Part shown: piece after piece, positions 48,001 to 51,000 of the stretch
Numbering within the stretch: position 1 is the stretch's first letter
Layout of the letters: every line of letters begins with the position of its first letter
Origin: Pedosphaera sp.
Lineage (GTDB): Bacteria > Verrucomicrobiota > Verrucomicrobiia > Limisphaerales > SIBH01
NCBI GenBank assembly: GCA_031414955.1
Contig: JANOQV010000159.1
Coordinates: 24,112 to 88,111, forward strand
Direction of reading: 5' to 3'
DNA length: 64,000 nt
Made by a program: the position numbers

Positions 48001-51000
48001 CTGCACCGGCAAGGTGAAGGAGACGTTGAAGATCGTCATCGAACTGCTGGCCGCGATTCCCAGCGTGGTCTGGGGCTTCATCGGGTTGAGCGTGATGAGC
48101 CCGGTCATCATCGGCGTCTTCCACGTTCCGGTCGGCGTGAACCTGTTCAACGCCGCCCTCCTGCTCGCGCTGATGAGCGTGCCCATCATGGTCAGCATCG
48201 GCGAGGACGCGCTCAAGGCGGTGCCGGACAGTTTTCGCGAAGCCGCCGTCGCCCTCGGGGCCACGCGCTGGCAGATGGTTTATCGCGTGCTGATTCCCGC
48301 CGCGAAGAACGGGCTGCTCGCGGCCGTGCTGCTCGGCGTGGGCCGCGCCATTGGTGAAACGATGGCCGTGCTCATGGCCACCGGCCACGCGGTGAACATT
48401 CCGCATTCCATTTTTGATCCCGTCCGCACGCTCACCGCCACCATCGCGGCGGAACTCGGGGAAACCTCGCAAGGTTCGCCGCACTACCAGGTGCTGTTCC
48501 TGATCGGCGTGCTGCTCTTCTCCATCACCTTCGTGGTGAATCTGACGGCGGATTTGATCGTGAAGGGCATCAAGAAGAAATGAAAGCTCCAAGCTCCAAG
48601 TTCCAAGCTCCAGACAAGATTCAAGGCCCAAGCTCCAATCGCCGGCCCGCGGATCGCCGGGCGTTTGCTGAGCGGCTGGCTGCGACTTGGTGTTTGATGT
48701 TTGGTGCTTGGTGCTTATCTGGATCTTGGATCTTGGAGCTTGGAGCTTTGTCTTAAAATGTTCACTGAAACCGCATTCATCCGCAAAAAGCGCCGCAACG
48801 AACTGGTGGCGAAATGCTTCTTCGGCTTCATGGCCGCGGCCATGGTCATCCCGCTCTTCCTCATCGTCGGCTACATCGTCGTGCAGGGCTGGCCCTCCAT
48901 GTCCTGGGAGTTCCTCACCGAGAATCCGCGCAGCGGCGGGGCCAAGGGCGGCATCTGGGCCGCCATCGTCGGCACGTTCTACATCGTGTTCTTCTCGCTG
49001 ATCATCTCCGCGCCGATTGGCGTGCTCGCCGCCGTGTATCTGAATGAGTACGCCAAGGAGAACTGGTTCACCCGCATCGTGAACCTCGCGGTCATGAATC
49101 TTGCGGGCGTTCCGTCCATCGTCCACGGCTTGTTCGGCGTCGGCGCATTCGTCTATTTCGCCAACTTCAACAACGGGAAGAAATCCATCATCGCCGCCGC
49201 ACTCACGCTGGCGGTGATGACGCTGCCTGTCATCATCGCCTCAACGAAGGAGGCGCTCGCCGCCGTGCCGCGACAATTCCGCGAAGCCTGCTGGAACGTC
49301 GGGGCCACGCGCTGGCAGACCATCTGGCGCATCGTGCTGCCGAATTCCATCAGCGGCATTCTCACCGGCGTCATCCTGCAAGTCAGCCGTACCGCCGGCG
49401 AGACTGCGCCCGTGATGCTCACCGGCGTCGCGACCTACAAGATGCTCGATAGCACCGGGTTGTTTCTCTATCACCCGATCAAGGATCAGTGCATGGCGCT
49501 CTCGATGCACCTCTACTACATCGCCACGCAGGCCAACAATGTCCCGAAGGCCACGCCCTTCGCCATCGCCACCGTGCTCATCGGCGTGGTGCTGATCGTG
49601 AATGCGGCGGCGATTGCCTTCCGCGTCTATCTGCGCTCCCGCAAGAAGTGGTAATGAAAAAGCACCAAGCACCAAGCACCAAGCTCCAGAGAAGTTCCAA
49701 ATCCCAAGCTCCAATTGGGAGTGCGGTGGCGAGTTGCGCCTTGGTGTTTGGTGCTTGGTGTTTCTCTGGTGCTTGGAGCTTGGTGTTTGGAGCTTTATTT
49801 CCCCAATGACTCTCGCCAAAAAAATCGAAGTCACCGATCTTCGCACGTTTTACAGCGGCAAGGAGGTCCACCACGGCATCTCGTTCCACGTCGAGCCGAA
49901 CGAAATCTTCGCCATCATCGGGCCGGCCCAGTCCGGCAAGACCACGCTGCTGCGCGCCATCAATCGCACGCTGGAATTCACGGCCGGCAGCAAGATGACC
50001 GGCACCATCAAGGTCGATGGCGAGGACGTAAAGAAGACCCGCGACGTCTATGGCCTGCGCCGCAAGATTGGCATGGTCGCGCCGCTGCCCGTGGGTTTGC
50101 CGCTGACGATTTACGACAACGTGGCGTTCGCGCCGCGTTCGTCCGGTGTGAAGGACAAGGGCTTCCTCGATGCCCATGTCGAGAAGTGTCTGCGCCAGTC
50201 CGCGCTCTGGGACGAGGTGAAGGACCGTCTCGATTCGCTCGGCACGAAACTGAGCGGCGGCCAGCAGCAGCGTCTCACCATCGCCCGCGCGCTGTCGCAT
50301 CAGCCGGAGATTCTCTGCCTCGACGAGTTCTCCATCGCCATCGATCCCGTGACCACGATGCGCATCGAAGACGTGCTCAAGGAATTGAAGAAGGAGATGA
50401 CCATCATTCTCGTGACCAATCTCGTGCAGCAGGCGCGACGACTCGCCGCGCGCACGATGTTCCTGTGGAACGGCGACATCATCGAACTCGACACGAACGA
50501 GGTGATGTTCAGCGGCAAGCCCAAAGACCAGCGGACGTATGATTACGTGAACGGAATTTTCGGATGAGAATGAAAACAAGCTCCAAGCTCCAAGCCCCAA
50601 GCTCCAGAAAAACACCAAGCCTCAAGCTCCAATGGAGTTTTGACGCGTCGGAATGTTCGTTGGTGTTTGGATCTTGGAGCTTATCTGGATCTTGGATCTT
50701 GGATCTTGGATCTTTCCCCGCATGACTCCCTCCACCTCGAACCACCCCAGGCCGCAATACGCCATCTCCACCGGCGATCTCTGCCTCTGGTACGCCAAGT
50801 TCCAGGCGCTCATGAACGTGACCGTGGACATCAAGCGCGGCATCATCACCTCGCTCATCGGCCCGAGTGGTTGCGGCAAGACCACGCTGCTGCGCTGCTT
50901 CAACCGGGTGAATGAACGCTACGGCTACGTGACCACCAAGGGCTTGATCGAATTGCACGGCAAGAACATCTACGACCCGGACGTGTCGCTCATCGAACTG

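What a model noticed while it worked through the whole genome (the two positions that open the first line are those of the whole stretch)
48584..50714. Heptad-armed palindromic elements inserted between cistrons of operons
More than 100 copies of a ~125-nt (73-211 nt) palindrome whose arms are imperfect 7-nt tandem repeats (left arm AARNNCC, right arm GGNNYTT, about 7 each, an 8-nt hinge after the 4th heptad, variable 20-50-nt centre) sit almost only between co-directional genes inside operons; three copies separate the four genes of the ABC-transporter operon at C159:72701-74819. Congeners lack them at the same junctions, so they are mobile insertions, not terminators. Read in the operon's direction the element is a ~51-codon mini-frame (Met-Lys start ~10 nt before the first heptad; Lys/Gln/Ser/Pro-rich first half, Trp/Leu/Gly/Phe-rich hydrophobic second half) whose start codon overlaps the upstream stop and [...]
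Evidence so far: Period-7 scan: 109 clusters with both arm types, 105 in order left-right, 4 reversed; unrelated trinucleotides give 3 and 8 runs against 253 and 264. Context of 104: 81 co-directional, 2 convergent, 9 divergent, 10 inside calls, 2 at contig ends; background 3457/689/700; hosts include scpA|scpB (C12:27372-27502), nuo genes (C301:23820-23944, 30063-30187), mreC|PBP2 (C185:12367-13145), ddl|murC (C281:14761-14884). RNAfold mean -68 kcal/mol, ~51 bp; sense more stable than antisense in 50 vs 30 of 81, Wilcoxon p 0.015. Same operon in congeners: G008 has 2 nt between stop and start where this genome has 165 nt; G007 keeps copy 1 (88%) but lacks 2 and 3; metagenome contigs of 4 DNA runs (2 studie [...]
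(Added by a program. Inside this text positions count along the whole contig: contig position 24,112 is position 1 of the stretch shown here. "Call 12" and the like, gene names such as g00115 and contig names such as C1 are that model's own, and its searches are not shown. The text may have been shortened before it was handed on; [...] marks where a part breaks off. The agent that wrote the report below was given it as the finding of a first reader that could run no searches.)

Follow-up and report, generated by a model that had tools for sequence, protein, structure and literature searches.

The report
Heptad hairpins that relay ribosomes
The hairpins between the phosphate-transport genes are gene-less copies of a repeat element whose full form carries a small protein known from ribosomal-RNA insertions. 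They appear to be tolerated inside operons because a short reading frame carries ribosomes across them, and in some secreted-protein genes the element has replaced the export signal.

Summary
Confirmed. The genome holds 124 two-armed copies and 19 single arms of a fixed design: 4 heptads + 4 nt + 3 heptads, mirrored. Three copies split this pst operon.

Origin: four-helix-bundle genes (PF05635, '23S-IVS protein') bracketed by these arms form one clade (8 loci, 99/96). That clade co-occurs with the repeat in 7 of 8 genomes outside the genus, so the short copies look like its ORF-less form.

Frame relay: 44 of 61 tight copies bridge upstream stop to downstream start, against 4 and 6 after a frame shift. 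Other genomes give 33 of 54 against 5 and 6. The host is Shine-Dalgarno-poor. Nine copies are read in frame as the N-terminus of probably secreted proteins; in two genes they replaced the native signal peptide across congeners. 34 copies ride inside a MITE of an intact DDE insertion sequence.

It works like mycobacterial MIRUs. No RNA or protein data; the mobiliser of operon copies is unknown. The scan noted the IVS link, relay and signal peptides before on other DNA.

The parts
47651..48583 (+). pstC-like permease; its TGA stop overlaps the ATG of mini-frame 1
   Evidence: PF00528; pst identity inferred from PhoU and PBP neighbours
48584..48748 (.). Element copy 1: left arm 55 nt, loop 55 nt, right arm 55 nt
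48580..48756 (+). Relay mini-frame 1, 58 codons; ATG overlaps the pstC stop, TAA ends 1 nt before the pstA ATG. The G007 copy keeps the frame but stops at another TAA, 10 nt upstream of the ATG
48758..49654 (+). pstA-like permease
49660..49795 (.). Element copy 2; absent from G007 (13-nt gap) and G008 (10-nt gap)
49654..49809 (+). Relay mini-frame 2, 51 codons; TAATG overlap with the pstA stop, ATGA overlap with the pstB1 start
49806..50567 (+). pstB1, ABC ATPase
50578..50714 (.). Element copy 3; G007, G004 and G012 have a plain ATGA stop/start overlap here
50564..50725 (+). Relay mini-frame 3, 53 codons; ATGA overlaps at both ends
50722..51516 (+). pstB2, ABC ATPase
9523..9655 (.). Another copy in the window, between two membrane-protein paralogs; 48-codon relay with ATGA overlaps at both ends
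   Evidence: (C159:33634)
60479..60647 (.). Another copy, between ABC-transporter genes; its mini-frame stops at +5 of the next start, just outside my relay window
   Evidence: (C159:84590)
5956..6010 (-). Single right arm, 7 nt before a gene start

Best explanation
A selfish palindromic element: the ORF-less form of a four-helix-bundle (23S-IVS-protein, Avd-like) cassette whose gene sits between mirror arrays of 4+3 heptads. It lodges at stop/start junctions of operons. In this Shine-Dalgarno-poor host a roughly -70 kcal/mol hairpin a few bases before a start codon would cut translational coupling, so selection keeps mainly copies that ribosomes can cross. Route 1 (relay): the ribosome ending the upstream gene restarts on the overlapping NTG, translates 40-70 codons through the hairpin, unwinds it, and stops on or just before the next start. 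Route 2 (fusion): the frame runs into the next gene; this persists mostly where the Lys-rich left arm and hydrophobic right arm serve as a cleavable signal peptide. A separate set of 34 copies spread as cargo of a MITE of a DDE insertion sequence. Shown: design, copy number, empty sites, link to one four-helix-bundle clade, selection on frame, replacement of native signal peptides, MITE anatomy. Inferred: translation and re-initiation, unwinding, export, origin by loss of the ORF, any role of the four-helix-bundle protein in spread.
For: Relay in 44/61 tight copies vs 4 and 6 after adding 1 or 2 nt to the loop; 31/44 start on the upstream stop, 27/44 stop on the ATGA of the next gene. Other genomes 33/54 vs 5 and 6. 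Element-free spacers 77, 55, 76 of 783. With NTGA at both ends, total length is 2 mod 3 in 20/27 (permuted mean 9.5, p 1e-4) and 17/24 elsewhere (8.1, p 2e-4), while each part varies. Internal stops by frame 4/24/30 of 56. SD-like words before 418/3491 ATG genes. Median arm-to-start distance 10 nt. Upstream gene ends in RTGA in 46/61 vs 448/1044 tight pairs, p 4e-7. Empty sites are often plain ATGA overlaps (L187, L093, L140, L157, L078). The C241 PF05635 gene is in frame with a left-arm ATG and followed by a whole element. Genes with these arms form one clade (8 rows, 99/96, 0/500 shuffles). Outside the genus, 7 of 8 repeat-bearing genomes of 47 hold that subfamily (Fisher 1e-6). Signal-peptide replacement in 7 of 20 and 10 of 18 orthologous loci of two genes. 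Intact 1223-bp IS with the same TIR and a perfect 10-bp duplication.
Against: No RNA or protein data. 18 of 72 copies next to a stop are neither relay nor fusion. Operon copies show no recent burst: nearest-neighbour arm identity median 0.87, none >=0.95 of 78, one similar loop pair among 75. No target duplication beyond NTGA (flank repeat mean 3.93 vs 3.95 shuffled), and no Y1 transposase or RT within 3 kb of a copy. The relay behind four-helix-bundle genes is weak (15/29 vs 9 and 10). The heptad skeleton is conserved after insertion (55/56 vs 127/163 four-fold sites, p 1e-4), which frame-keeping alone does not explain. Four congeners with arms show no close four-helix-bundle match (MAGs 73-88% complete).
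Confidence: 0.62

Rival explanations
1. mRNA intervening sequences: RNase III cuts the long stems, as in 23S rRNA IVSs, splitting operon messages into cistrons. The mini-frame only sets how often a stem escapes cutting.
For: The Coxiella IVS has heptamer repeats in a stem cut by RNase III (PMC4990558, passages). An RNase III gene is present. The skeleton is conserved after insertion. Slight sense-strand folding bias.
Against: Cutting would undo the coupling that the frame selection keeps. In-frame fusions must be read through intact. The G-U bias did not replicate in other genomes.
Confidence: 0.14
2. Domesticated control spacers: the host keeps hairpin plus relay to tune the stoichiometry or stability of operon segments, perhaps through a host protein or the four-helix-bundle protein binding the heptads.
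For: Copies persist at the same junction in several genomes with the frame kept across length changes (6 of 8 shared junctions). The skeleton is conserved.
Against: Close congeners run the same operon without them. Hosts are functionally unrelated genes. Different palindromes replace each other at one junction.
Confidence: 0.12
3. The mini-frames encode working membrane micropeptides.
For: Consistent charged-then-hydrophobic make-up, median 52 aa.
Against: All three heptad phases are used and loops are unrelated. No Pfam match. The composition follows from the repeat in any frame.
Confidence: 0.04
4. Not mobile: each copy arose in place by slippage and fold-back, or is an old element that congeners lost.
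For: Unrelated loops, no target duplication, no burst.
Against: The identical 4+4nt+3 design at over 120 unrelated sites and in several phyla. Clade-linked cassette. Empty ATGA overlaps in most orthologs.
Confidence: 0.06

Closest known systems
MIRU, mycobacterial interspersed repetitive units (PMC12548453 passages; PMC3184786 section 9; Supply 1997 itself not read)
   Same: Dispersed repeat inside operons with a small ORF overlapping the flanking genes; -4 coupling at start codons; 4-nt repeats at filled sites; proposed to spare downstream expression.
   Different: MIRUs are 40-100 bp GC-rich units. These are 117-288 nt palindromes of heptad arrays with unique loops, tied to a four-helix-bundle gene clade, in Verrucomicrobiota and other phyla.
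ORF-bearing 23S rRNA intervening sequences (Coxiella/Leptospira S23p; PMC4990558 passages)
   Same: PF05635 gene inside a stem whose arm has tandem heptamers.
   Different: Here in mRNA operon junctions, mostly ORF-less, translated through by inference; excision is not shown.
Convergent inverted GGGAATC heptamer pairs of Xanthomonas and heptamer repeats of Nostoc (PMC4692102 passages); Beggiatoaceae TAACTGA repeats (PMC4679880 passages); Geobacter heptanucleotide elements (PMC2700814 passages)
   Same: Intergenic heptamer arrays, often in inverted pairs or close to start codons, function open.
   Different: In the passages seen, no four-helix-bundle link and no frame relay. The 4+4nt+3 arm is specific to this family.
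Yersinia RU-2 fused to YPO1552 (PMC2759123 passages); Rickettsia palindromic elements (recalled; cited)
   Same: [quoted passage not shown]
   Different: Here nine genes in one genome, with the native signal peptide replaced and kept across 7-10 congeneric loci.
MITEs of ISAs1-type DDE elements (family name and its CAGGG / 10-bp signature recalled; PF13808 + PF01609 shown)
   Same: The outer 15-bp TIR and 10-bp duplication of the 34 cargo copies match an intact IS in the genome.
   Different: Applies only to that subclass; operon copies lack TIR and duplication.

Membership tests
MIRU-like frame-preserving repeats | Small ORF whose ends overlap or abut the flanking stop and start, in the operon's direction | tested here: met
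   44/61 vs 4 and 6; 33/54 vs 5 and 6
MIRU-like frame-preserving repeats | Insertion at 4-nt stop/start overlaps with that tetranucleotide on both sides | tested here: inconclusive
   Fits five empty/filled pairs and pst copy 3; 27/61 have NTGA at both ends; other empty sites have 1-30-nt gaps
MIRU (strict) | Sequence homology to the mycobacterial 40-100-bp units | not tested
   No MIRU sequence was fetched; size and heptad design differ from the description
ORF-bearing rRNA IVS | PF05635 gene between inverted arms with heptamers (full form) | tested here: met
ORF-bearing rRNA IVS | Located in 23S rRNA | tested here: not met
   Copies and cassettes examined lie between or at the front of protein genes; rRNA genes may be unassembled in this MAG
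ORF-bearing rRNA IVS | Excised by RNase III | not testable with these tools
   RNase III gene present; no RNA reads of this organism listed
MITE (operon-type copies) | Target-site duplication and a cognate transposase sharing the ends | tested here: not met
   Flank repeats 3.93 vs 3.95 shuffled; no Y1 or RT gene within 3 kb
MITE (34 cargo copies) | TIR, target-site duplication and an intact cognate IS | tested here: met
   36 TIR pairs, 33 with heptads, 23 with >=8/10 duplication (control 0); IS at C23:7505-8727
REP/REPIN | 20-40-bp GTAG- or CGTC-tagged palindrome with an adjacent RAYT gene | tested here: not met
   Arms are 55-nt heptad arrays; none of 12 Y1 genes lies within 3 kb of a copy
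Intrinsic terminator | Short GC stem plus U-tract after the last gene or between convergent genes | tested here: not met
   9 sites vs 7.1 shuffled; the one inside a copy is copy 2's inner loop; 1 of 86 operon-type copies is convergent
Sec signal peptide (fusion copies) | Positive n-region, hydrophobic h-region, Ala-x-Ala site, export and cleavage | tested here: inconclusive
   Charge +1 to +9, best 11-aa hydropathy 1.7-2.7, Ala-rich ends in 7 scored; orthologs have an ordinary signal peptide at that place; no predictor or assay available; n-regions unusually long

The most novel reading that the evidence does not exclude
Four-helix-bundle gene plus mirrored heptad arms is a transposase-less mobile element class of its own. 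The Avd-like protein recognises its own heptad type (arm type follows the protein clade) and, with host or borrowed polymerases, plants full and empty copies at stop/start overlaps, where the built-in reading frame makes them nearly invisible to translation. This would explain bacterial heptamer repeats, rRNA IVS ORFs and a recurring source of new signal peptides together.
Probability: 0.25. Interest if true: 0.88.

Novelty: new variant of a known kind. Interest (0 to 1): 0.6.

Why it matters
It ties an unexplained class of bacterial repeats (intergenic heptamer arrays; the 2015 paper says no detailed literature existed) to a protein family of unknown function. It gives a quantitative, replicated case of selection for ribosome relay through parasitic hairpins in a Shine-Dalgarno-poor lineage, and shows repeat DNA displacing native export signals. 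The clade-specific arm makes a direct binding test possible. In practice these copies cause wrong start calls and spurious short ORFs in Verrucomicrobiota annotation.

Tried and rejected
Rfam: only two chance-level matches, both below gathering score. Terminator reading rejected. RNA: no RNA holder listed; the single run (share 0.08, RNA status a guess) holds contigs of relatives, and the contig joining pstC to pstA has 81 other letters there, so replaced rather than spliced; not used as evidence. Target duplication for operon copies: none. Loops as remnants of four-helix-bundle genes or of other genomic sites: no real matches beyond self and other repeats. REP reading of the outer arms of the cargo class: dropped once the 10-bp duplications and the IS were found. 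The 5' relay test on cassettes was evaluable for 3 loci only; the 3' test was weak. G-U strand bias failed to replicate. PDB by sequence: one uncharacterised protein, 2rld; no fold or complex job was run. Paper searches for the four-helix-bundle/heptad link found no such paper. The library lacks most subscription papers, including Supply 1997 and Mrazek 2007; no supplements were opened. Gene calls come from my own hexamer caller. Relay windows were set after viewing the junction list, so the window-free permutation is the stricter test. Rows dropped: 35 of 96 co-directional copies (too far from a stop or start, or MITE-borne) before the 61; 64 of 118 foreign copies before the 54; only 80 of 114 stretches were used.

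Full report
Observation. Three palindromes lie at window 48584-48748, 49660-49795 and 50578-50714, between a PstC-like and a PstA-like permease and two PstB-like ATPases, downstream of PhoU and a phosphate-binding-like protein. They fold far below shuffles (z -8.5, -7.6, -5.5) and match no Rfam family. From 47 strict seeds the arm is 4 heptads AARNNCC, 4 extra nt, 3 heptads and AA, 55 nt in all. A matrix scan gives 239 arms at >=30 bits, with 244 real against 9 control hits at >=25 bits. These make 124 two-armed copies and 19 single arms. The hinge is 4 nt, not 8.

Two classes. 34 two-armed copies and 4 single arms lie inside a larger unit with 15-bp inverted ends beginning CAGGG. Of 36 such end pairs, 33 enclose heptads and 23 have a 10-bp flank duplication at >=8/10, against 0 in the control. 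One pair encloses an intact 377-aa DDE transposase with a perfect duplication. I recall this signature as ISAs1-type. These copies include near-identical sets and sit in wide or divergent spacers. The other 90 are operon-type: 80 of 86 with two neighbours are co-directional (background 71%), and 62 of 80 begin within -10 to +20 nt of the upstream stop. The three pst copies are operon-type.

Insertion. Among 29 other loci with a PstA match (three are distant paralogs), only G007 shares copy 1. G008 has gaps of 2, 10 and about 20 nt. G007, G004 and G012 have a plain ATGA overlap at the site of copy 3. In the reverse test, 31 of 54 foreign copies had both neighbours adjacent in this genome. Nine of these junctions hold a copy here too, five are ATGA overlaps, and the rest mostly have short gaps or other inserts. 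The arm pattern occurs in 18 of 61 genomes searched, this one included, and in 9 of 11 congeners. Record titles put it mainly in Verrucomicrobiota, also in Omnitrophota, deltaproteobacterial or Thermodesulfobacteriota bins, Acidobacteriota and Planctomycetota. Against recent copying: operon copies have unrelated loops (one similar pair among 75, and that pair proved MITE-borne), median nearest arm identity 0.87, and no flank duplication above chance.

Full-length form. I recalled that '23S rRNA intervening-sequence' four-helix-bundle genes are flanked by heptads, and tested it. The genome has four PF05635 genes. The one on C241 starts at an ATG just before a left arm, runs in frame through that arm, and is followed by a whole element. 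Its closest relatives lie between a left and a right arm of this design in six other loci; a seventh is cut off by a contig end and has only a degenerate right arm, labelled by eye. Sister genes use other heptads with the same 4-nt hinge. On a tree of 30 proteins the eight form one group (99/96; 0 of 500 shuffles as low), spanning six host families. Among 47 genomes outside the family, 8 carry the repeat and 8 carry the subfamily at E<1e-29; 7 are shared (Fisher p 1e-6; kin are not fully independent). Four incomplete congeners have arms without a close match. A review passage states that PF05635 is homologous to the retroelement protein Avd (PMC10053308). The Coxiella IVS has heptamers in an RNase III-cut stem (PMC4990558).

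Frame. Of 96 co-directional copies, 61 are tight on both sides. 44 have a frame from a start within -8 to +20 of the upstream stop to a stop within -12 to +4 of the next start; adding 1 or 2 nt to the loop leaves 4 and 6. All three pst copies qualify (58, 51, 53 codons). In other genomes it is 33 of 54 against 5 and 6. Element-free spacers give 77, 55 and 76 of 783. Where NTGA stands at both ends, total length is 2 mod 3 in 20 of 27 and 17 of 24, about twice the permuted means, though each part varies. So the frame is selected, not templated. Copy 1 keeps its frame in G007 with a different stop codon, and six of eight junctions filled in two or more genomes relay in all of them despite length changes. 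Only 418 of 3491 ATG genes have an SD-like word, and the hairpin ends a median 10 nt before the start. Coupling by re-initiation or unfolding, and its inhibition by structure just after a stop, are described in PMC12548453 (passages). Against: 18 of 72 copies next to a stop are neither relay nor fusion, and the relay behind cassette genes is weak, 15 of 29 against 9 and 10.

Signal peptides. 11 of 72 copies can be read in frame into the next gene; nine lack a separate ATG near the arm. The seven I scored have a positive front, a hydrophobic stretch from the right arm and an Ala-rich end. For an M23-family gene, 7 of 20 loci have the element as the whole N-terminus and 13 have no element, most with a short ordinary signal peptide. 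For a prenyltransferase-fold gene, 7 of 18 have both arms, 2 keep only the right arm, 1 is decayed, and 8 lack the element. Export is inferred; no predictor was available.

Unexplained. Between G000 and G007, copy 1 keeps 55 of 56 skeleton positions, against 127 of 163 four-fold sites and 29 of 55 loop positions. Something besides frame holds the heptad skeleton: structure, a binding protein, or gene conversion. The mobiliser of operon copies is unknown. No Y1 transposase or reverse transcriptase gene lies within 3 kb of a copy.

Comparison. It works like MIRUs, which insert at start codons and couple through their own ORF. It is related to ORF-bearing rRNA IVSs but fails their location test. 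The fusion class parallels Yersinia RU-2. Inverted heptamer pairs are on record in Xanthomonas without these links. I also saw passages of PMC3733652, PMC3110155, PMC4679880 and PMC2700814; no paper was read whole and no supplement was opened. Nine searches found no paper joining four-helix-bundle genes, heptad palindromes and frame relay, within a library that lacks most subscription journals. Earlier notes of this scan report the IVS link, relay frames and signal-peptide use on other genomes. They are unchecked and not counted as support; two of them pointed me to papers.

Verdict. A real, widespread element and a new variant of a known kind: MIRU-like in action, IVS-like in origin. Best explanation 0.62. 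The bolder reading, a transposase-less element class run by an Avd-like protein that recognises its heptad, 0.25. Interest 0.6.

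Noticed in passing
window 49806-51516: The two PstB paralogs look complementarily degenerate: PstB1 has a normal signature but N-L at the H-loop; PstB2 has the H-loop but an altered signature.
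   Followed up: partly
   Followed up: no
G000 C23:7505-8727 (in L320): Intact 1223-bp DDE insertion sequence with a perfect 10-bp duplication. 33 TIR-bounded MITEs carry a heptad palindrome, with at least three different inner copies, so capture happened more than once.
   Followed up: partly
L001-L003, L005-L008: The other three four-helix-bundle genes have inverted arms of other heptad types. The GxxExxY (PF13366) genes have inverted arms of about 9-10-nt units and also sit inside operons.
   Followed up: partly
L043-L056, L068-L071: Many cassettes of this subfamily sit at the same kind of junction (resembling a DUF1553|DUF1501 pair; names recalled, not tested) while the arm unit changes between 7-mer types and an 8-mer; the 4-nt hinge is kept.
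   Followed up: partly
L300-L309: One secreted-protein gene carries different palindromes in frame in its signal-peptide region in different congeners, so the site is a repeated target.
   Followed up: partly
L011 (G012), L033 (G018), L012, L035: pst junctions in other genomes hold other hairpins, including an independent copy of this type and one with a different heptad.
   Followed up: no
G000 C67:24399, C184:137778; L264, L267: Other palindromic repeats have inserted into the loop or replaced the left arm of some copies.
   Followed up: no
L256: One fusion host has a weak, below-cut-off match to the ATLF zinc-peptidase-like domain.
   Followed up: no
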